From Escherichia coli (GTDB lineage: Bacteria > Pseudomonadota > Gammaproteobacteria > Enterobacterales > Enterobacteriaceae): 64,000 nt of DNA. This document shows, piece by piece, positions 2,213 through 54,696 of this stretch; positions within the stretch are counted from its first letter, which is position 1, and the number at the start of each line of letters is the position of its first letter. The notes beneath the pieces were generated by a model. That model was given only the letters and a program-made list of their open reading frames with translations, searched no databases and was not told the origin of the DNA. Where the stretch lies: NCBI RefSeq assembly GCF_003334785.1, contig NZ_QOWV01000007.1. One strand, 5' to 3'. Both the position numbers and the translations under genes were made by a program.

Positions 2213-2688
2213 CAGTGGCGTATATTGCCATAGGCAGCAATCTGGCCTCTCCGCTGGAGCAGGTCAATGCTGCCCTGAAAGCATTAGGCGATATCCCTGA
2301 AAGCCACATTCTTACCGTTTCTTCGTTTTACCGCACCCCACCGCTGGGGCCGCAAGATCAACCCGATTACTTAAACGCAGCCGTGGCGCTGGAAACCTCT
2401 CTTGCACCTGAAGAGCTACTCAATCACACACAGCGTATTGAATTGCAGCAAGGTCGCGTCCGCAAAGCTGAACGCTGGGGACCACGCACGCTGGATCTCG
2501 ACATCATGCTGTTTGGTAATGAAGTGATAAATACTGAACGCCTGACCGTTCCGCACTACGATATGAAGAATCGTGGATTTATGCTGTGGCCGCTGTTTGA
2601 AATCGCGCCGGAGTTGGTGTTTCCTGATGGGGAGATGTTGCGTCAAATCTTACATACAAGAGCATTTGACAAATTAAACAAATGGTAA
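2209..2688 (+). CDS. folK: 6-hydroxymethyl-7,8-dihydropterin pyrophosphokinase (HPPK)
   Basis: 159-aa ORF, full-length match to HPPK; start overlaps pcnB stop by 4 nt (ATGA). Confidence 0.95.
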
Positions 2689-2690
2689 TT

Positions 2691-2713
2691 TATTTATATT
2701 GCGAATATAAATA
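2691..2713. promoter_or_regulatory. Perfect AT-rich palindrome (10-bp arms, 3-bp centre) just downstream of folK stop
   Basis: tatttatatt-gcg-aatataaata read directly; left arm is the exact reverse complement of the right arm. Confidence 0.4.
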
Positions 2714-2852
2714 TTTTCTGAAAATCATATCTCATCTCTTTCCTTAATTACGATTTTAGTTTAAACATCTCTTTGCGGAAATAATATAACTTCCTATAAA
2801 TAAATATCAATCCCATCTCCATACCCTAACCAATTGCACTTGTGAACTTATT

Positions 2853-2877
2853 TTTACTTAATTTTGAATTAAGTAAA
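2853..2877. promoter_or_regulatory. Perfect AT-rich palindrome (11-bp arms, 3-bp centre) in yadN upstream region
   Basis: tttacttaatt-ttg-aattaagtaaa read directly; lies about 180 bp upstream of the yadN start in a 369-bp AT-rich intergenic region. Confidence 0.4.
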
Positions 2878-3057
2878 TTTAATTTGTTCAAAAGCTTCTA
2901 AAGTGCACAATAGGCGACCTAATGAACAATGGTTGTAAATTTGGGTAACAAATATCATTGCTCATTAATATCTAACATTTGTTTCTCCTATTTGTGTCAT
3001 GAATAGTCATTCTTCAAACATGTAGTCTGACTAATGGAATTTTATTAAAGGATTTTT

Positions 3058-3642
3058 ATGTCTAAAAAATTAGGTTTTGCCCTGTCTGGTCTTATGCTGG
3101 CGATGGTTGCAGGTACTGCTTCTGCTGATATGGACGGCGGTCAGTTAAATATCAGTGGTCTGGTTGTTGATAACACCTGTGAAACCCGCGTTGACGGCGG
3201 TAACAAGGATGGTCTGATCCTGCTGCAAACCGCAACCGTTGGTGAAATCGATGCTGGCGTACTGAATGACACCGTTGGCGCTAAAGCTAAACCTTTCAGC
3301 ATCACCGTTGACTGCAGCAAAGCAAATCCGAATCCAGGTAGCACGGCTAAAATGACCTTCGGTTCTGTTTTCTTTGGTAACAGCAAAGGGACTTTGAACA
3401 ACGACATGTCTATTAACAACCCATCTGACGGCGTTAATATCGCTCTACACAATATTGATGGTTCCACTATCAAACAGGTTCAAATTAACAACCCTGGCGA
3501 TGTGTATACTAAAGCCCTGGATGCAACGACAAAATCTGCTGTTTATGATTTTAAAGCGTCTTACGTTCGTGCCGTCGCAGACCAAACAGCAACTGCTGGT
3601 TATGTAAAAACTAACACTGCATACACCATTACTTATCAGTAA
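3058..3642 (+). CDS. yadN: Fimbrial major subunit (chaperone-usher pilin)
   Basis: 194 aa with signal peptide, conserved Cys pair and C-terminal donor-strand-type tail TAYTITYQ; first gene of a chaperone-usher operon. Confidence 0.9.
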
Positions 3643-3739
3643 GTATTCACCAGTTAAATTGATTGAATGAATATACAGGGAATAATAATTTCTATTTTAT
3701 ATTATTCCCTGTTTTAATTAACTCTATCAGGGATGGTTT

Positions 3740-4480
3740 ATGTTTTTTAACACCAAACATACAACAGCTTTATGCTTCGTAACCTGTATGGCTTTTAGTT
3801 CATCGTCTATTGCGGACATTGTCATTTCGGGTACTCGCGTAATATATAAAAGCGATCAAAAAAGTGTCAACGTACGTCTGGAAAATAAAGGGAATAACCC
3901 GTTGCTTGTCCAGAGTTGGTTAGATACTGGCGATGACAACGCTGAGCCTGGCAGTATTACAGTCCCTTTTACTGCTACGCCGCCAGTATCGCGTATTGAT
4001 GCCAAACGTGGGCAAACAATCAAATTAATGTACACAGCCAGCACCTCACTGCCTAAAGACAGAGAGAGCGTGTTCTGGTTTAACGTACTGGAAGTTCCAC
4101 CAAAACCAGATGCAGAAAAGGTCGCGAATCAAAGCCTGCTGCAACTGGCATTTCGCACACGTATAAAACTTTTCTATCGCCCGGATGGATTGAAGGGAAA
4201 TCCCTCTGAAGCCCCGTTAGCCCTGAAGTGGTTCTGGTCAGGTTCAGAAGGTAAGGCGTCATTACGAGTGACCAATCCAACCCCTTACTACGTCTCTTTT
4301 AGCAGTGGTGATTTAGAAGCTAGCGGTAAACGCTATCCGATTGATGTGAAAATGATTGCACCATTTAGTGATGAGGTCATGAAAGTCAATGGCCTTAATG
4401 GCAAAGCGAATTCTGCAAAAGTGCATTTTTACGCCATTAATGACTTTGGTGGCGCAATTGAAGGTAATGCCAGGCTGTAA
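3740..4480 (+). CDS. yadV: Periplasmic fimbrial chaperone (PapD-like)
   Basis: 246 aa with signal peptide and PapD-family chaperone fold; sits between pilin and usher genes. Confidence 0.9.
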   Translation: MFFNTKHTTALCFVTCMAFSSSSIADIVISGTRVIYKSDQKSVNVRLENKGNNPLLVQSWLDTGDDNAEPGSITVPFTATPPVSRIDAKRGQTIKLMYTASTSLPKDRESVFWFNVLEVPPKPDAEKVANQSLLQLAFRTRIKLFYRPDGLKGNPSEAPLALKWFWSGSEGKASLRVTNPTPYYVSFSSGDLEASGKRYPIDVKMIAPFSDEVMKVNGLNGKANSAKVHFYAINDFGGAIEGNARL

Positions 4481-4514
4481 TCAGGCAAGGATATAATTCC
4501 GCAGGAAGCATAGC

Positions 4515-7112
4515 GTGACTATAGAATATACTAAAAATTATCATCATCTGACCCGTATCGCCACGTTTTGCGCGCTGCTGTATTGCAATACTGCTTTCAG
4601 TGCTGAACTCGTTGAATATGACCATACCTTCCTGATGGGGCAGAATGCATCTAATATTGATCTCAGCCGGTACAGTGAAGGTAACCCCGCTATACCGGGT
4701 GTTTACGACGTCAGTGTTTATGTAAACGACCAACCAATCATTAACCAAAGTATTACATTTGTCGCAATTGAAGGAAAAAAGAACGCCCAGGCTTGTATCA
4801 CATTAAAGAATTTATTGCAGTTTCATATTAATTCTCCCGATATAAATAACGAAAAAGCCGTTCTGCTTGCCAGGGATGAAACGCTCGGCAATTGCCTCAA
4901 TTTGACGGAAATTATCCCTCAGGCTTCTGTTCGTTATGACGTTAACGATCAACGTCTGGATATAGACGTTCCTCAAGCCTGGGTAATGAAAAATTACCAA
5001 AACTATGTTGATCCATCGTTATGGGAAAACGGCATTAATGCGGCCATGTTGTCATACAACCTCAACGGATATCATAGTGAAACCCCTGGTCGAAAAAATG
5101 AAAGCATTTATGCTGCATTTAACGGTGGGATGAATTTAGGTGCATGGCGACTGCGTGCCTCGGGCAACTACAACTGGATGACCGATTCTGGCAGTAATTA
5201 TGATTTTAAGAATCGGTATGTTCAGCGTGATATCGCCTCGCTGCGTTCTCAACTCATTCTTGGTGAGTCTTATACGACGGGCGAAACCTTTGATTCCGTC
5301 AGTATCCGAGGCATTCGTTTATACAGTGACAGCCGCATGTTGCCTCCGACTTTAGCCAGCTTTGCGCCTATCATTCATGGCGTTGCCAATACCAACGCCA
5401 AAGTCACTATTACGCAAGGTGGCTATAAGATTTATGAAACGACGGTGCCGCCAGGCGCTTTCGTCATTGATGATCTGAGTCCGTCAGGGTACGGCAGCGA
5501 TCTTATTGTTACCATCGAAGAATCCGATGGCTCAAAGCGGACATTCTCGCAACCTTTCTCATCCGTTGTTCAAATGTTACGCCCTGGCGTTGGACGTTGG
5601 GATATTAGCGGCGGTCAGGTCTTAAAAGATGATATTCAGGATGAGCCTAATTTATTTCAAGCAAGCTACTACTACGGCCTGAATAACTATCTGACGGGTT
5701 ATACCGGTATTCAGATAACCGATAATAACTATACCGCTGGTTTGTTAGGTCTTGGTCTGAATACTTCAGTTGGTGCATTTTCTTTCGATGTGACTCATTC
5801 CAATGTTCGTATCCCGGATGATAAAACATACCAGGGGCAAAGTTATCGTGTTTCCTGGAACAAGTTATTCGAAGAAACAAGTACTTCACTGAATATCGCG
5901 GCCTATCGCTATTCGACACAGAATTACCTTGGTCTTAATGATGCACTAACTCTAATTGATGAAGTGAAACATCCCGAACAAGATCTTGAACCGAAATCCA
6001 TGCGTAATTACTCACGCATGAAAAATCAGGTTACGGTCAGTATTAACCAACCGTTGAAATTTGAGAAAAAAGATTACGGTTCATTTTATCTTTCCGGAAG
6101 TTGGTCCGATTACTGGGCTTCCGGACAAAATCGTAGCAATTACTCTATTGGCTACAGTAACAGTACATCCTGGGGCAGCTACAGTGTCAGTGCCCAGCGT
6201 TCATGGAATGAAGACGGCGACACTGACGATAGCGTTTATCTTAGTTTCACCATTCCAATTGAAAAATTACTTGGCACTGAACAACGTACTTCAGGTTTCC
6301 AGAGTATTGATACTCAAATAAGCAGTGACTTTAAGGGTAATAACCAACTCAACGTTAGCAGCAGTGGCTATAGCGATAACGCTCGCGTCAGTTATAGCGT
6401 GAATACTGGCTATACGATGAATAAAGCCAGCAAAGATTTGAGTTATGTTGGGGGTTATGCCAGCTATGAGTCACCATGGGGAACGCTGGCAGGTTCAATT
6501 TCTGCAAATAGCGATAACAGCCGTCAAGTTTCTCTCAGCACCGACGGTGGTTTTGTATTGCATAGCGGTGGACTGACTTTCAGTAATGATAGTTTTAGCG
6601 ACTCCGATACACTGGCGGTAGTTCAGGCTCCAGGTGCTCAAGGAGCGCGAATAAATTATGGCAACAGTACTATCGATCGATGGGGTTATGGTGTCACCAG
6701 CGCTCTTTCTCCTTATCATGAAAACCGTATCGCGCTGGATATCAACGATCTTGAGAACGATGTTGAATTAAAAAGTACCAGTGCAGTAGCTGTACCGCGT
6801 CAGGGTTCAGTCGTCTTTGCTGATTTTGAAACCGTGCAAGGGCAATCAGCCATTATGAACATCACACGAAGTGATGGTAAAAATATTCCATTTGCTGCAG
6901 ATATTTATGATGAGCAAGGCAATGTCATTGGTAATGTTGGACAGGGTGGACAAGCATTTGTTCGTGGTATTGAGCAGCAGGGAAATATCAGCATTAAATG
7001 GCTCGAACAAAGTAAACCCGTAAGTTGTCTTGCGCATTATCAACAAAGCCCAGAAGCAGAAAAAATAGCACAATCTATTATTCTGAATGGAATTCGGTGT
7101 CAGATTCAGTAA
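4515..7112 (+). CDS. htrE: Outer-membrane fimbrial usher
   Basis: 865-aa ORF with apparent GTG start; usher-family length and composition. Confidence 0.9.
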   Translation: MTIEYTKNYHHLTRIATFCALLYCNTAFSAELVEYDHTFLMGQNASNIDLSRYSEGNPAIPGVYDVSVYVNDQPIINQSITFVAIEGKKNAQACITLKNLLQFHINSPDINNEKAVLLARDETLGNCLNLTEIIPQASVRYDVNDQRLDIDVPQAWVMKNYQNYVDPSLWENGINAAMLSYNLNGYHSETPGRKNESIYAAFNGGMNLGAWRLRASGNYNWMTDSGSNYDFKNRYVQRDIASLRSQLILGESYTTGETFDSVSIRGIRLYSDSRMLPPTLASFAPIIHGVANTNAKVTITQGGYKIYETTVPPGAFVIDDLSPSGYGSDLIVTIEESDGSKRTFSQPFSSVVQMLRPGVGRWDISGGQVLKDDIQDEPNLFQASYYYGLNNYLTGYTGIQITDNNYTAGLLGLGLNTSVGAFSFDVTHSNVRIPDDKTYQGQSYRVSWNKLFEETSTSLNIAAYRYSTQNYLGLNDALTLIDEVKHPEQDLEPKSMRNYSRMKNQVTVSINQPLKFEKKDYGSFYLSGSWSDYWASGQNRSNYSIGYSNSTSWGSYSVSAQRSWNEDGDTDDSVYLSFTIPIEKLLGTEQRTSGFQSIDTQISSDFKGNNQLNVSSSGYSDNARVSYSVNTGYTMNKASKDLSYVGGYASYESPWGTLAGSISANSDNSRQVSLSTDGGFVLHSGGLTFSNDSFSDSDTLAVVQAPGAQGARINYGNSTIDRWGYGVTSALSPYHENRIALDINDLENDVELKSTSAVAVPRQGSVVFADFETVQGQSAIMNITRSDGKNIPFAADIYDEQGNVIGNVGQGGQAFVRGIEQQGNISIKWLEQSKPVSCLAHYQQSPEAEKIAQSIILNGIRCQIQ

Positions 7113-32353: not shown

Positions 32354-34246
32354 TTACATCACCAGACGGCGAATGTCAGACAGCGTGTTGTTAATGATGG
32401 TAATGAAACGGGCACCATCAGCACCGTCGATCACGCGGTGGTCGAAGGAGAGAGAAATCGGCAGCATCAGACGCGGCACGAACTCTTTACCATTCCACAC
32501 CGGCTCCATCGCGGACTTGGAAACGCCGAGGATAGCCACTTCCGGCGCGTTCACAATCGGCGCGAAGTGGGTAGTACCCAGGCCGCCGATGCTGGAGATG
32601 GTGAAGCAACCGCCCTGCATTTCGCCCGCAGTCAGCTTACCGTCACGCGCTTTCTTAGAAATAGTCATCAGCTCGCGAGACAGCTCGATGATGCCTTTCT
32701 TGTTGACGTCTTTGAATACCGGAACAACCAGACCGTTCGGGGTATCCACCGCCACACCGATGTTGATGTATTTCTTCAGGGTCAGACGCTGACCGTCTTC
32801 CGACAGCGAACTATTGAAGCGAGGCATCTGCTCAAGAGCTGCAGCAACGGCTTTCATGATGAAGACAACCGGGGTGATCTTCACATCCAGCTTACGTTTC
32901 GCCGCTTCTTCGTTCTGCTGTTTACGGAACGCTTCCAACTCGGTGATATCGGTTTTGTCGAAGTGAGTAACATGCGGGATCATTACCCAGTTACGGCTCA
33001 GGTTCGCACCAGAGATTTTCTGGATGCGGCCCAGTTCCACTTCTTCGATTTCACCAAACTTGCTGAAGTCCACCTTCGGCCACGGCAGCATGCCAGGGAT
33101 ACCACCGCCAGTCGCTGCCGGAGCTGCTTCTGCACGTTTGATAGCTTCTTTCACGTAAGCCTGAACGTCTTCGCGCAGGATACGACCTTTACGGCCAGTG
33201 CCCTTCACTTTCGCAAGGTTAACACCAAACTCGCGTGCCAGACGGCGGATCAGCGGAGTCGCGTGAACATAAGCGTCGTTTTCAGCAAATTCAGATTTGC
33301 CTTCCGCTTTCGCAGCTGGTGCTGCTGCCGGGGCTTCAGCTTTTGCTGCCGGTGCCGGCGCTGCCGCTTCCTGTTTCGCAGGAGCTGCCGCAGGCGCTGC
33401 GCCTTCAACTTCGAAGATCATAATCAGCGAGCCAGTTTTCACTTTATCGCCAACGTTGACTTTCAGTTCCTTCACGACGCCTGCAAACGGCGCCGGAACT
33501 TCCATAGAAGCTTTGTCGCCTTCTACGGTGATCAGTGACTGTTCAGCGGCAACTTTGTCGCCCACTTTCACCATCACTTCAGTCACTTCAACTTCGTCAC
33601 CGCCGATATCCGGAACGTTAACTTCTTTCACGCCAGCCGCTGGTGCAGGGGCCGCTGCCGGAGCTGCTTCCTGTTTAGCGGCCGGAGCTGCCGCGCCTGC
33701 TTCACCCGCGACTTCGAAGACCATAATCAGCGAGCCGGTAGACACTTTATCACCCACGTTCACTTTGATCTCTTTCACGGTGCCAGCAAACGGAGCCGGA
33801 ACTTCCATAGAAGCCTTGTCGCCTTCTACGGTGATCAGCGACTGTTCAGCTTCAACTTTATCGCCAACTTTCACCAGGATTTCGGTCACTTCAACTTCGT
33901 CGCTGCCGATATCCGGAACGTTAACGTCTTTTGCCGCCGCAGCCGCTGGTGCTGCTGCCGGAGCTGCTTCTTTCTTCTCTTCTGCCTGAGCAGGTGCAGC
34001 GTCTGCTGCACCGTCGGCGGAATCGAAAATCATAATCAGTGCGCCGGTCTGGGTTTTATCGCCAACAGAGACTTTGATCTCTTTAACGATACCCGCCTGC
34101 GGAGACGGAACTTCCATAGAGGCTTTGTCGCCTTCTACGGTGATCAGCGACTGTTCGGCTTCAACTTTGTCGCCCACTTTGACCAGGATCTCGGTGATTT
34201 CAACTTCATCAGCCCCGATGTCCGGTACTTTGATTTCGATAGCCAT
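32354..34246 (-). CDS. aceF: Pyruvate dehydrogenase E2 (dihydrolipoamide acetyltransferase) with three lipoyl domains
   Basis: 630 aa; three repeats of the lipoyl-lysine motif [13 protein letters not shown] joined by Ala/Pro-rich linkers. Confidence 0.95.
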
Positions 34247-34260
34247 TATTCTTTTACCTC

Positions 34261-36924
34261 TTACGCCAGACGCGGGTTAACTTTATCTGCATCGATGTTG
34301 AATTTGGCGATTGCGTCAGCAACCACTTTCTTATCGATTTCGCCACGTTTAGCCAGTTCGCCCAGCGCCGCAACCACGACATAAGAAGCATCAACTTCGA
34401 AGTGGTGACGCAGGTTCTCACGGCTGTCGGAACGACCGAAGCCATCAGTACCCAGTACGCGGTAGTCGTCAGCCGGTACGTAAGTACGGACCTGCTCAGC
34501 GAACAGTTTCATATAGTCGGTAGATGCCACTGCCGGAGCGTCGTTCATCACCTGAGCGATATACGGAACGCGCGGAGTTTCCAGCGGGTGCAGCATGTTC
34601 CAGCGTTCACAATCCTGACCATCACGCGCCAGCTCGGTGAAGGAGGTCACGCTATAAACGTCAGAACCTACGCCGTAATCTTTCGCCAGGATCTCAGCTG
34701 CTTCACGGACGTGACGCAGGATAGAACCGGAGCCGAGCAGCTGAACTTTACCTTTGCTACCTTCAATAGTTTCGAGTTTGTAGATACCTTTACGGATACC
34801 TTCCTCAGCACCTTCCGGCATTGCCGGCATGTGGTAGTTTTCGTTCAGCGTAGTGATGTAGTAGTAAACGTTCTCTTGTTTTTCACCGTACATACGCTCC
34901 AGACCGTCATGCATGATGACAGCAACTTCGTAAGCGTAAGCCGGGTCGTAAGAGATACAGTTCGGGATAGTCAGCGACTGAATGTGGCTGTGACCATCTT
35001 CGTGCTGCAGACCTTCGCCGTTCAGGGTGGTACGACCGGAAGTACCGCCGATCAGGAAGCCACGCGCTTGCTGGTCGCCAGCCGCCCAGCACAGATCGCC
35101 AATACGCTGGAAGCCGAACATCGAGTAATAGATGTAGAACGGGATCATCGGCAGATTGTTGGTGCTGTAAGAGGTCGCCGCTGCCAGCCAGGAACAACCT
35201 GCGCCCAGCTCGTTGATCCCTTCCTGCAGAATCTGACCTTTCTCGTCTTCTTTATAGTAAGCAACCTGCTCGCGGTCCTGCGGGGTGTACTGCTGACCGT
35301 TCGGGCTGTAAATACCAATCTGACGGAACAGACCTTCCATACCGAAAGTACGCGCTTCGTCGGCGATGATCGGTACCAGACGATCTTTGATCGACTTGTT
35401 CTTCAGCATCACGTTCAGAGCACGAACGAAAGCGATAGTGGTAGAGATCTCTTTGCTCTGCTCTTCCAACAGCGCGCCGAAGTCTTGCAGGCTCGGCAGC
35501 TCAAGCTTCTCGGTGAAGTTCGGCTGACGGCTTGGCAGATAACCGTGCAGTTTCTGACGCTGAGCGTGCAGATAGGTATGCTCTTCAGAACCTTCCGGGA
35601 AGGTGATGTACGGCAGTTTTTCGATATCTGCATCAGACACCGGCACATTGAAACGGTCGCGGATATGACGCACACCGTCCATGTTCATTTTCTTAACCTG
35701 GTGCGCGATGTTTTTACCTTCAGCCGCGTCGCCCATGCCGTAACCTTTAATGGTATGAGCAAGGATTACTGTCGCTTTGCCTTTGGTTTCCTGCGCTTTC
35801 TTGAATGCAGCGTAGATTTTCTTCGGATCGTGACCACCACGGTTCAGTGCCCAGATCTGCTCGTCAGTCCAGTCTGCAACCAGTGCTGCGGTTTCAGGAT
35901 ATTTACCGAAGAAGTGTTCACGAACGTACGCACCATCTTTCGATTTGAAGGTCTGGTAGTCGCCGTCAACGGTTTCGTTCATCAGCTGGATCAGTTTACC
36001 GCTGGTATCCTTACGCAGCAGTTCATCCCAACGGCTACCCCACATCACTTTGATCACGTTCCAGCCAGCACCTTCGAAGATGCCTTCCAGTTCGTTGATG
36101 ATCTTGCCGTTACCGGTGACCGGGCCGTCAAGACGCTGCAGGTTACAGTTGATAACGAAGACCAGGTTATCCAGTTTTTCACGGGTAGCGATGGTGATCG
36201 CACCTTTGGATTCCGGTTCGTCCATTTCACCGTCACCGAGGAACGCGTAAACGGTTTGTTTAGAGGTATCTTTCAGGCCACGGTGTTCCAGATATTTCAG
36301 GAATTTAGCCTGGTAAATAGCACCAATCGGACCCAGACCCATAGATACGGTCGGGAACTGCCAGAATTCCGGCATCAGTTTCGGGTGCGGATAGGAAGAG
36401 AGGCCATTGCCGTGAACTTCCTGACGGAAGTTATCCAGCTGCTCCTGAGTCAGACGACCTTCCAGGAAAGCACGAGCGTACACGCCCGGGGAGATGTGGC
36501 CCTGGAAGTAAACCAGGTCGCCGCCATCCTGCTCGTTGCGTGCACGGAAGAAGTGGTTAAAGCACACATCATAAATGGTTGCGGAAGACTGGAAGGACGC
36601 CATATGGCCGCCCAGTTCGAGGTCTTTTTTCGACGCACGCAGCACCGTCATGATGGCGTTCCAGCGGATAGCTGAACGAATACGGCGTTCCAGTTCCAGA
36701 TTACCCGGATACTCCGGTTGTTCTTCAACGGGGATGGTGTTGATGTAGTTGCTGATACCTGTGCCTGCGGCTACGTTTACACCGCCTTTGCGGGCTTCAG
36801 CAAGCAGTTGGTCGATCAGATACTGAGCACGCTCAACACCTTCTTCACGGATGACCGATTCGATCGCCTGGAGCCAGTCGCGAGTTTCGATCGGATCCAC
36901 GTCATTTGGGAAACGTTCTGACAT
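34261..36924 (-). CDS. aceE: Pyruvate dehydrogenase E1 component
   Basis: 887 aa, full-length match to thiamine-diphosphate-dependent E1. Confidence 0.95.
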
Positions 36925-37084
36925 GGGTTATTCCTTATCTATCTAATAACGTTGAGTTTTCTGGAACCTGTCCCATTGAACTCTCGCCGGAAAGCTCAAT
37001 AAGACAGGTTCTACGTTTAGTTGCCGCGCTTTTATATGCGCTTGATTTACAACATCTTCTGGATAATTTTTACCAGAAAAATCA

Positions 37085-53484: not shown

Positions 53485-54636
53485 TTAATCAGCTTGCTTA
53501 CGCAGGAATGCTGGGATATCCAGATAATCCGGCTCTTTCGCAGTTTGCGGCGCATTGTCATTCACGACTTTAGCAACCGGCTTCTGCTCCTGGGTCAGCG
53601 GAGCCATCCCATGCTGCTGGTAGCGATCCATCACTGGCTGCTGAACCTGCTTATTGGTCACCAGAGTGATTTCAGGACGTTTGTCCATGCCGATACCTGT
53701 CGCAACAACGGTTACGCGCAGCTCGTCATTCATATCCGGGTCAAGAGAAGTACCGATAACCACAGTCGCGTTGTCGGAAGCAAATGCACGGATGGTGTTA
53801 CCTACCGTTTCGAACTCATCCAGACGCAGGTCGAAGCCCGCCGTGATGTTAACCAGCACGCCGCGCGCGCCAGACAGGTCGATATCTTCCAGCAGCGGAG
53901 AAGAGATAGCCATTTCAGCAGCTTCTTCCGCACGGTCTTCACCGCTCGCCACGCCAGAACCCATCATTGCGTAGCCCATCTCAGACATTACGGTGCGTAC
54001 GTCTGCAAAGTCCACGTTCATCAAACCCGGACGAGTAATCAGTTCAGCGATACCTTGCACAGCGCCTTTCAGTACATCGTTCGCTGCGCCAAACGCATCC
54101 AGCAGGGAGATACCGCGGCCCAGAACTTTCAGCAGTTTGTCGTTCGGGATAGTGATCAGAGAGTCCACATGCTTGGACAGTTCAGTGATCCCCTGCTCCG
54201 CGAATGCCATACGCTTCTTGCCTTCAAAGTTGAAAGGCTTAGTGACGACAGCAACGGTCAGGATACCCAAATCTTTTGCCACTTCAGCGACGACTGGTGC
54301 TGCACCTGTACCGGTACCACCACCCATACCCGCAGCAATAAAGACCATGTCTGCACCTTCCAGCGCCGCACGCAATGCATCGCGATCCTCATCAGCCGCA
54401 TTGCGGCCAACTTCTGGATTAGCGCCAGCGCCCAGTCCTTTGGTGATACCGCTACCGATTTGAATCGTCTGTCCAACCGCTGTTTTACGCAGCGCTTGTG
54501 CATCGGTATTTACCGCGAAGAATTCAACACCTTCAATGCGCTCGCGCACCATGTGTTCAACAGCATTACCGCCGCCGCCGCCGACGCCGATGACTTTAAT
54601 CACCGCGTCATTGGTAAGTTCCATTGGTTCAAACAT
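53485..54636 (-). CDS. ftsZ: Cell division GTPase FtsZ
   Basis: 383 aa; tubulin signature GGGTGTG. Confidence 0.98.
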
Positions 54637-54696
54637 AGTTTCTCTCCGATTTGTGCCTGTCGCCTGAGGCCGTAATCATCGTCGGCCTCATAAAAA

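What the first reader, a model, noticed from the sequence alone, without database searches (positions are those of the whole stretch)
33300..34246. Triplicated lipoyl-domain DNA in aceF generates long spurious antisense ORFs
Three approximately 300-bp repeats encode the three lipoyl domains and their Ala/Pro-rich linkers. The repeats are similar enough at nucleotide level to permit homologous recombination that changes domain number, and their GC-rich periodicity produces long open frames on the opposite strand that are artefacts.
Basis: seen in the sequence. Interest (0 to 1): 0.2.

Follow-up and report, generated by a model that had tools for sequence, protein, structure and literature searches.

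The report
Triplicated lipoyl-domain repeat in E. coli aceF
This is the textbook three-fold lipoyl-domain repeat at the start of the E. coli pyruvate dehydrogenase E2 gene aceF; rare natural strains have lost or gained one repeat unit, and the long reading frames on the opposite strand are by-products of codon usage, not genes.

Summary
Window 32354-34246 (- strand) is E. coli aceF, 100% identical to strain FORC 064 and to PDB 7B9K. It sits in the pdhR-aceE-aceF-lpdA operon. Its first ~915 nt are three tandem units of 309, 303 and ~303 nt. Each unit encodes a lipoyl domain plus an Ala/Pro linker. Domain cores are 76-86% identical in DNA, with exact shared runs of 32, 26 and 23 nt.

The recombination idea is supported. 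Of 5,424 complete E. coli genomes, six carry an exact one-unit, in-frame deletion, in at least four different strain backgrounds. One more has an out-of-register 192-bp deletion. Four-domain alleles appear only in draft, metagenome and two Salmonella assemblies, and some of those entries are clear assembly artefacts. Among 70 Enterobacterales species, 62 have three domains, seven have two and one has one. Domains 2 and 3 show a gene-conversion signal.

The antisense ORFs (230 and 409 aa here, 757 aa opposite aceE) are real open frames but spurious as genes. They follow from near-absence of TTA/CTA/TCA codons and from a Tyr/His-free composition, not from GC-rich periodicity. The feature is already known and of low interest.

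The parts
32354..34246 (-). aceF, dihydrolipoyllysine-residue acetyltransferase (E2p) of the pyruvate dehydrogenase complex, 630 aa
   Evidence: ORF, translation. 100% DNA identity to E. coli FORC 064, annotated aceF. Identical to PDB 7B9K chain A. Pfam 3x PF00364 + PF02817 + PF00198.
33938..34246 (-). Repeat unit 1 (gene nt 1-309): lipoyl domain 1 (aa 3-78 = 34013-34240, lipoyl-Lys41) plus Ala/Pro linker 1 (aa 79-105)
33635..33937 (-). Repeat unit 2 (gene nt 310-612): lipoyl domain 2 (aa 106-181 = 33704-33931, Lys144) plus linker 2 (aa 182-206)
33332..33634 (-). Repeat unit 3 (gene nt 613-915): lipoyl domain 3 (aa 207-282 = 33401-33628, Lys245) plus first part of linker 3
   Evidence: Domain 3 matches PDB 1QJO.
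34125..34156 (-). 32-nt tract (GAACAGTCGCTGATCACCGTAGAAGGCGACAA) identical in unit 1 and unit 2 (partner at 33816-33847). It lies in the conserved core around the lipoyl-lysine; the unit-1/2 breakpoint interval lies just downstream of it.
   Evidence: The 309-bp deletion in strain 01_3327 maps to gene nt 123-141, immediately downstream. The 309-bp duplication junction in P0001 lies in the same conserved core.
33513..33535 (-). 23-nt tract identical in unit 3 and unit 2 (partner at 33816-33838). The observed unit-2/3 deletion and duplication breakpoints lie in or beside this core.
   Evidence: 303-bp deletions in C4, VTB97379v and Rb-50 map to gene nt 408-461. 303-bp duplications map to nt 735-768.
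33297..33989 (+). 230-aa antisense ORF inside the repeats, in the frame shifted by one base from the codon-aligned frame. Spurious.
   Evidence: The simulation gives stop-free runs at least this long in 100% of recoded genes, even with ordinary codon usage. This exact sequence is absent from a 15-billion-protein collection.
32309..33538 (+). 409-aa antisense ORF in the codon-for-codon antisense frame. It ends at the complement of the only TCA codon of aceF (codon 237, 33536-33538). Spurious.
34402..36675 (+). 757-aa antisense ORF opposite aceE, same codon-aligned frame. It shows the effect does not depend on the repeats.
34261..36924 (-). aceE (E1p), upstream gene of the operon
30605..32029 (-). 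lpdA (E3), downstream gene

Best explanation
The region is the 5' third of E. coli aceF. An ancient triplication of a ~300-nt unit (lipoyl domain plus Ala/Pro linker) gives each E2p chain three swinging arms. These arms carry acetyl groups between the E1, E2 and E3 active sites.

The units keep 76-86% DNA identity through protein-level constraint, strong shared codon bias and, for units 2 and 3, occasional gene conversion. The identical 23-32-nt cores around the lipoyl-lysine allow in-register misalignment. This could be RecA-mediated unequal exchange or replication slippage; which of the two is inferred, not shown. The result removes or adds exactly one unit in frame. Such alleles arise repeatedly but stay rare, about 0.1% of complete E. 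coli genomes. That fits published engineering work showing that fewer domains lower growth rate and yield.

The long ORFs on the opposite strand are not genes. They are passive consequences of the sense gene avoiding TTA/CTA/TCA, and of a region with no Tyr or His codons.
For: **Identity of the gene**
- 100% DNA match to annotated aceF, in the order pdhR-aceE-aceF-lpdA.
- Full-length identity to PDB 7B9K.
- Pfam architecture of three Biotin_lipoyl domains, E3_binding and 2-oxoacid_dh.

**Repeat structure:**

**Deletions in complete E. coli genomes**
- Junction queries found the dom2N|dom3C junction in four genomes (C4, C2, VTB97379v, Rb-50; 98.0-98.7% identity, then a drop to 93-94%).
- They found the dom1N|dom2C junction in two genomes (01_3327, 03_3013; 98.3%, then 90.9%).
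- The C4, VTB97379v and Rb-50 genes are 1590 nt (529 aa) and the 01_3327 gene is 1584 nt (527 aa). They fit a clean 303- or 309-bp deletion in the identity core; C2 and 03_3013 were identified from the junction match only.
- C4, VTB97379v and Rb-50 differ by 1.0-1.3% in aceE, so they are different backgrounds.
- Other 529-530-aa variants in the protein collection have different breakpoints (P0123, P0124, P0130).

**Duplications:** 731-733-aa alleles have exact tandem copies of 303 or 309 nt, in backgrounds that differ at synonymous sites.

**Between species:** 62 of 70 have three domains, seven have two and one has one. The survivors are dom1 plus a dom2/3-like domain, or a dom1N|dom3C hybrid.

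**Gene conversion:** within-genome dom2-dom3 identity is 86.5%, against 82.1% between genomes. It is higher in 60 of 62 species. The dom1 comparisons act as a control and differ by only ~1%.

**Antisense ORFs**
- Frames and codon counts.
- With pdh-operon codon usage, the fraction of recoded genes reaching the observed length is 0.70 for the aligned frame and 1.0 for the 230-aa frame.
- TTA+CTA+TCA make up 5 of 1,991 codons in the pdh genes, against 227 of 9,326 in ordinary genes of the window.
- Comparable open frames with shifting boundaries occur in 30 other species. The aligned antisense translation is 69% conserved, against 95% for the sense protein.
- The literature attributes frame -1 ORFs in E. 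coli to codon bias (PMC5810103).

**Fitness:** Dave, Guest & Attwood 1995 is cited in PMC10579247.
Against: - No four-domain allele of the two junction types tested exists in 5,424 complete E. coli genomes.
- Public assemblies hold demonstrable artefacts at these repeats. P0040 has the three domains in permuted order, and P0002, P0010, P0015 and P0025 are cross-species chimeras.
- The 32-nt exact core is just long enough to collapse a k=31 assembly graph. The hundreds of short contigs carrying the 527-aa allele are therefore unreliable as counts.
- The mechanism (RecA-dependent or slippage) and the fitness cost in natural backgrounds were not tested here.
- No raw reads were examined for the six complete genomes.
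Confidence: 0.9

Rival explanations
1. The copy-number variants are all assembly or annotation artefacts, and the repeat number in E. coli is effectively invariant.
For: Permuted-order and chimeric AceF entries show that assemblers mis-traverse these repeats. Four-domain alleles are absent from complete E. coli genomes. Most contigs carrying the 527-aa allele are short, and its junction lies beside a 32-nt exact repeat that a k=31 graph cannot resolve.
Against: Six complete chromosomes from different laboratories, hosts and countries carry clean in-frame one-unit deletions. Three of them lie in backgrounds 1.0-1.3% apart. The dom2/dom3 core is only 23 nt in this allele, too short to collapse modern assembly graphs. 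Several distinct breakpoints exist. Fixed two- and one-domain genes in other species look like the same recombinant products.
Confidence: 0.07
2. One or more of the antisense ORFs is a real overlapping gene, as has been claimed for some antiparallel gene pairs in E. coli.
For: The ORFs are long (230, 409 and 757 aa). Antisense open frames persist across Enterobacterales. An Rfam sRNA (tp2) lies on this strand just upstream of aceE, so some antisense transcription near the operon is conceivable.
Against: Their length is expected from the sense protein plus its codon usage: the fraction of recoded genes reaching the observed length is 0.70 and 1.0. ORF boundaries move with the chance positions of TTA/CTA/TCA codons in other species, and the aligned antisense translation is poorly conserved (69% against 95%). 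The exact products are absent from a 15-billion-protein collection. The predicted products are low-complexity (Ala/Ser/Thr-rich or Arg/Cys/Phe-rich).
Confidence: 0.03
3. The DNA similarity of the repeats reflects only protein constraint plus codon bias, with no ongoing exchange between units.
For: Domain orthology is well kept across species (dom1 to dom1 in 62 of 62, dom3 to dom3 in 61 of 62). Within- and between-genome identity for the dom1 comparisons differ by only ~1%.
Against: dom2-dom3 identity is higher within than between genomes in 60 of 62 species (86.5% against 82.1%). The same-codon fraction is 0.72 within genomes and 0.63 between them. In E. coli, 51 of 66 identical residues use the same codon, against 35 expected from codon usage alone. 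In some species the dom2-dom3 exact run reaches 98 nt.
Confidence: 0.15

Closest known systems
E. coli K-12 AceF (UniProt P06959; PDB 7B9K, 1QJO, 4N72), the E2p core of the pyruvate dehydrogenase complex
   Same: Identical protein: three lipoyl domains, peripheral-subunit-binding domain and catalytic domain, in the same operon. PMC8421416 describes the three lipoyl domains as 73% identical and functionally redundant.
   Different: None for this window. The natural two-domain alleles (527 and 529 aa) and four-domain alleles (731-733 aa) found in other strains differ by exactly one unit.
Engineered E. coli PDH complexes with altered lipoyl-domain number (Guest, Perham and co-workers; Dave, Guest & Attwood 1995, Microbiology 141:1839)
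   Same: The natural 529- and 527-aa alleles have the same architecture as the laboratory two-lip constructs: hybrid domains joined in register. That work reports that lowering lipoyl-domain content reduces growth rate and yield (title cited; further details are from my own knowledge).
   Different: The engineered versions were made in vitro on plasmids. The ones here are chromosomal alleles in wild isolates.
E2p of other Gammaproteobacteria with one or two lipoyl domains (for example Yersinia and Erwinia)
   Same: Same gene and operon. The two-domain forms look like dom1 plus a dom2/3-type domain.
   Different: In those species the copy number is the fixed state, not a rare polymorphism.
Long 'frame -1' antisense ORFs in highly expressed bacterial genes
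   Same: The 409-aa and 757-aa ORFs lie in the codon-aligned antisense frame. They are explained by avoidance of TTA/CTA/TCA, the explanation given for E. coli in PMC5810103.
   Different: The 230-aa ORF lies in another antisense frame and depends on amino-acid composition (no Tyr or His) rather than on synonymous codon choice.

Membership tests
AceF / E2p dihydrolipoyllysine-residue acetyltransferase | N-terminal lipoyl domain(s) with the lipoyl-lysine in a DKA motif | tested here: met
   Three PF00364 hits with E-values from 5e-23 to 1e-21. GDKASMEV motif at Lys41, Lys144 and Lys245.
AceF / E2p dihydrolipoyllysine-residue acetyltransferase | Peripheral-subunit-binding domain followed by a 2-oxoacid dehydrogenase acyltransferase catalytic domain with the DHRxxDG motif | tested here: met
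   PF02817 at aa 327-362 and PF00198 at aa 399-629. DHRVIDG is present in the translation.
AceF / E2p dihydrolipoyllysine-residue acetyltransferase | Operon context between E1p (aceE) and E3 (lpdA) | tested here: met
   Annotated order pdhR-aceE-aceF-lpdA in the identical record. Matching ORFs in the window.
AceF / E2p dihydrolipoyllysine-residue acetyltransferase | Sequence identity to the experimentally characterised enzyme | tested here: met
   Residues 1-630 match PDB 7B9K at 1323 bits.
Tandem intragenic repeat subject to homology-driven contraction and expansion | Direct head-to-tail units containing uninterrupted identity of about 20-30 nt or more | tested here: met
   Units of 309, 303 and 303 nt. 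Exact tracts of 32, 26 and 23 nt.
Tandem intragenic repeat subject to homology-driven contraction and expansion | Natural alleles differing by whole units, with breakpoints inside identity tracts | tested here: met
   Deletions of 303 and 309 bp in six complete genomes. Duplications of 303 and 309 bp in draft and metagenome assemblies.
Tandem intragenic repeat subject to homology-driven contraction and expansion | Dependence on RecA, or on replication slippage, and suppression by mismatch repair | not testable with these tools
   Needs genetic rate measurements.
Antiparallel overlapping protein-coding gene | ORF longer than expected from the composition of the sense gene | tested here: not met
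   The simulation keeps the protein sequence and draws codons from the operon's usage. The fraction of recoded genes reaching the observed length is 0.70 and 1.0.
Antiparallel overlapping protein-coding gene | Conservation of the antisense product and of the ORF boundaries across relatives | tested here: not met
   Antisense identity in the aligned frame is 69%, against 95% for the sense protein. Run lengths vary from 198 to 633 codons with the TTA/CTA/TCA count.
Antiparallel overlapping protein-coding gene | Evidence of transcription and translation | not testable with these tools
   No expression data available. The exact products are absent from the protein collection.

The most novel reading that the evidence does not exclude
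Lipoyl-domain number in aceF is a recurrent natural polymorphism in E. coli and Salmonella, ranging from two to four domains. It is generated by exchange within the repeats. In some lineages it is retained because it tunes pyruvate dehydrogenase flux, rather than being a mildly deleterious accident.
Probability: 0.2. Interest if true: 0.4.

Novelty: already known. Interest (0 to 1): 0.15.

Why it matters
The three-domain repeat of AceF and the codon-bias origin of long antisense ORFs are both established, so the finding adds nothing fundamental. Three practical points follow.
- Wild E. coli genomes do carry two-lipoyl-domain aceF alleles, which offers a natural counterpart to the classic engineered constructs for studying why three domains are kept.
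- Annotation pipelines mislabel such alleles. PGAP calls the intact 527-aa gene a pseudogene.
- Public protein collections contain assembly-generated AceF chimeras and permutations, so copy-number surveys from draft assemblies need read-level checks.

Tried and rejected
- **Whole-gene and repeat-region megablast** against complete E. coli genomes. This could not list structural variants directly, because off-diagonal repeat alignments are merged into apparent full coverage. I replaced it with five junction-specific queries.
- **Duplication and double-deletion junctions.** The dom3N|dom2C and dom2N|dom1C duplication junctions and the dom1N|dom3C double-deletion junction gave no complete-genome hit.
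- **Buttiauxella agrestis 'ATCC 33320'.** Two assemblies under this name have two and three domains, which looked like a within-strain difference. I rejected this: the loci differ at 58 of 936 nt, so they are different organisms.
- **Lineage-fixed four-domain alleles in Salmonella.** I rejected this: each of the two proteins occurs on a single contig.
- **Literature searches** for natural aceF domain-number variation or repeat recombination found nothing relevant in the open-access library.
- **'GC-rich periodicity'** as the cause of the antisense ORFs was rejected.

Full report
**What is there**

Window 32354-34246 on the - strand is a 630-codon ORF. Its DNA is 100% identical to aceF of E. 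coli strain FORC 064 and at least 97% identical in nearly all of 5,424 complete E. coli genomes. The annotated gene order is pdhR-aceE-aceF-lpdA. The protein is identical over its full length to PDB 7B9K, the E2p core of the pyruvate dehydrogenase complex. Pfam places three Biotin_lipoyl domains at aa 4-73, 107-176 and 207-277, an E3_binding domain at aa 327-362 and the catalytic domain at aa 399-629.

**The repeats**

- The repeat finder reports three in-register 300-nt copies. Tandem Repeats Finder reports period 303, 2.7 copies, 80% matches and score 917.
- In gene coordinates the units are nt 1-309, 310-612 and 613 to about 915. In window coordinates these are 33938-34246, 33635-33937 and 33332-33634.
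- The 76-codon domain cores are 77%, 76% and 86% identical in DNA. Third-codon-position identity is 0.57-0.71.
- The longest exact shared tracts are 32 nt (units 1/2), 26 nt (1/3) and 23 nt (2/3). All lie around the lipoyl-lysine motif.
The structure itself is textbook; PMC8421416 describes the three lipoyl domains as 73% identical and redundant.

**Do the repeats recombine?**

I built 300-nt queries across each junction that an in-register exchange would create. I searched them against 5,424 complete E. coli genomes that carry the region.

| Junction | Event | Complete genomes with the junction | Next-best identity |
|---|---|---|---|
| dom2N\|dom3C | one-unit deletion | 4 (C4, C2, VTB97379v, Rb-50; 98.0-98.7%) | 93-94% |
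| dom1N\|dom2C | one-unit deletion | 2 (01_3327, 03_3013; 98.3%) | 90.9% |
| dom3N\|dom2C | one-unit duplication | 0 | best 95.0% |
| dom2N\|dom1C | one-unit duplication | 0 | best place 88% coverage at 90.2% |
| dom1N\|dom3C | two-unit deletion | 0 | best 90.6% |

- I retrieved four of the six variant genes (C4, VTB97379v, Rb-50 and 01_3327). They are intact ORFs of 1590 nt (529 aa) or 1584 nt (527 aa). They fit a clean 303- or 309-bp deletion, with the breakpoint interval inside or next to the identity core. C2 and 03_3013 rest on the junction match alone.
- C4, VTB97379v and Rb-50 differ from one another at 1.0-1.3% of aceE sites. The same event therefore sits in different backgrounds.
- One further genome, strain 463, has an out-of-register 192-bp deletion. 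It lies between the two VGDKV-coding half-sites, with only 5 nt of microhomology.
- In the large protein collection, the exact 529-aa and 527-aa proteins occur on 182 and 454 contigs. Other two-domain variants there have different breakpoints (P0123, P0124 and the linker-to-linker P0130).

**Four-domain alleles**

- Proteins of 727-735 aa appear among E. coli isolate drafts and metagenome assemblies. Proteins of 723-731 aa appear in two Salmonella chromosomes and a Citrobacter assembly.
- Their DNA shows exact tandem copies of 303 or 309 nt, in backgrounds that differ at synonymous sites.
- Caution is needed. The same search returned an AceF with the three domains in permuted order (P0040). 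It also returned several cross-species chimeras (P0002, P0010, P0015, P0025). These can only be assembly artefacts.
- The 32-nt core is just long enough to confuse k=31 graphs. This probably inflates the count of short contigs carrying the 527-aa allele.
- I therefore treat deletions as established in complete genomes, at about 0.1%. Duplications are probable but unconfirmed.

**Between species**

- A scan of one genome per species returned 80 Enterobacterales loci, of which 70 contained the whole gene. Of these, 62 have three lipoyl domains and seven have two. The seven are Yersinia thracica, Y. pekkanenii, Erwinia piriflorinigrans, Ca. Erwinia dacicola, Pantoea sp. A4, a Brenneria and Buttiauxella agrestis. 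One, Ca. Symbiopectobacterium, has a single dom1N|dom3C hybrid domain.
- Orthology is largely kept: dom1 to dom1 in 62 of 62, dom3 to dom3 in 61 of 62, and dom2 to dom2 in 55 of 62. The triplication is therefore old.
- Domains 2 and 3 are nonetheless more alike within a genome (86.5%) than between genomes (82.1%), in 60 of 62 species. The dom1 comparisons, which control for shared codon usage, differ by only about 1%. This points to occasional gene conversion between units 2 and 3.
- In E. coli, identical residues share the same codon more often than codon usage alone predicts (51 observed against 35 expected for dom2-dom3).

**Mechanism**

What is shown: tandem direct units, identity tracts of 23-32 nt, whole-unit in-frame variants with breakpoints in those tracts, and a gene-conversion signal. 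What is inferred: that the events arise by in-register misalignment, either RecA-mediated unequal exchange between sister chromosomes or RecA-independent slippage. Established work on short homologies in E. coli makes both plausible (my own knowledge). I could not distinguish them here. The rarity of two-domain alleles fits the report that lowering lipoyl-domain content reduces growth rate and yield (Dave, Guest & Attwood 1995, cited).

**The antisense ORFs**

- On the + strand there are ORFs of 409 aa (32309-33538), 230 aa (33297-33989) and 68 aa. There is also one of 757 aa opposite aceE (34402-36675).
- The 409- and 757-aa ORFs are in the codon-for-codon antisense frame. A stop in that frame requires a sense TTA, CTA or TCA codon.
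- aceF has one such codon in 630, and the 409-aa ORF ends exactly at it (33536-33538). aceE has two in 887.
- Across the three pdh genes the rate is 5 in 1,991 codons, against 227 in 9,326 in ordinary genes of the window.
- The 230-aa ORF is in a different frame. Stops there require a Tyr codon after a pyrimidine-ending codon, or a His or Gln codon after a T-ending codon. The lipoyl domains and linkers contain no Tyr or His, and few such Gln contexts.
- I ran simulations that keep the protein and redraw codons. With the operon's own codon usage, the aligned frame reaches the observed length in 70% of draws. The 230-aa frame reaches it in 100% of draws, even with ordinary codon usage.
- In 30 other species the same frames are open for a median of 383 and 301 codons. 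The boundaries shift with the TTA/CTA/TCA count. The aligned antisense translation is only 69% conserved, against 95% for the sense protein.
- The exact antisense products are absent from a 15-billion-protein collection.
- The region is 55-57% G+C, barely above its surroundings.

The cause is codon bias and amino-acid composition, a known explanation for frame -1 ORFs in E. coli (PMC5810103). GC-rich repeat periodicity is not the cause, and the effect extends well beyond the repeats.

**Verdict**

The feature is already known. The modest new element is that one-unit deletions of the lipoyl repeat occur repeatedly in wild E. coli, and that fixed differences exist among Enterobacterales. I found no report of the within-species polymorphism in the open-access library. 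That library lacks most of the older literature from the Guest and Perham laboratories.

Noticed in passing
window 32059-32205 (aceF-lpdA spacer): An insertion of about 147 nt carries the motif AATCCCCAGGAGCTTACATAAGTAAGTGACTGGGGTGAGGG, which resembles an ERIC/IRU element from memory. It is present in this window, where the spacer is 324 nt. Strain C4 lacks it (spacer 207 nt, shown by alignment); strains Rb-50 and 463 and the metagenome locus L003 have the same 207-nt spacer.
   Followed up: partly
window 36927-37040 (+): Rfam tp2 sRNA model matches at 103 bits (gathering threshold 50) in the pdhR-aceE intergenic region, on the strand opposite to the operon.
   Followed up: no
window 34402-36675 (+); also 26830-27759 (+) and 53611-54675 (+): Other long antisense ORFs lie opposite genes almost free of TTA/CTA/TCA: 757 aa opposite aceE, 309 aa opposite the 916-codon ORF at 25729-28479, and 354 aa opposite the 383-codon ORF at 53485-54636. 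The phenomenon is general in this window, not specific to the repeats.
   Followed up: partly
L009 (NZ_CP074961.1, E. coli 01_3327) 2541-4124: The intact 527-aa two-lipoyl-domain aceF is annotated by PGAP as a pseudogene ('incomplete; missing N-terminus'), although it starts at the normal ATG and reads through to the normal stop.
   Followed up: yes
L002 (NZ_CP183105.1, E. coli 463) 3001-4701; corresponds to window 33566-33757: An out-of-register 192-bp (64-aa) deletion fuses the first 58 residues of lipoyl domain 2 to residue 22 onward of domain 3, with 5-nt microhomology. It would give an abnormal 113-residue hybrid with two lipoyl-lysine motifs. It could be real or an assembly error.
   Followed up: partly
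proteins P0040, P0002, P0010, P0015, P0025, P0032: Public AceF entries show permuted domain order or domains from two different species. These are assembly chimeras formed at the conserved lipoyl-lysine core, and they warn against counting domains from draft or metagenome assemblies.
   Followed up: partly
proteins P0035 (680 aa) and P0038 (668 aa): These E. coli AceF entries carry a 50-aa tandem duplication of the peripheral-subunit-binding domain (P0035) or a 38-aa out-of-register internal duplication within lipoyl domain 2 (P0038).
   Followed up: no
NZ_CP107281.1 (E. coli JCL301, laboratory strain), hit H30: Only the last 96 nt of aceF remain, next to ampE. This is an engineered or laboratory deletion of the pdh region, and it accounts for one of the two complete genomes that lack the repeat region.
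   Followed up: no
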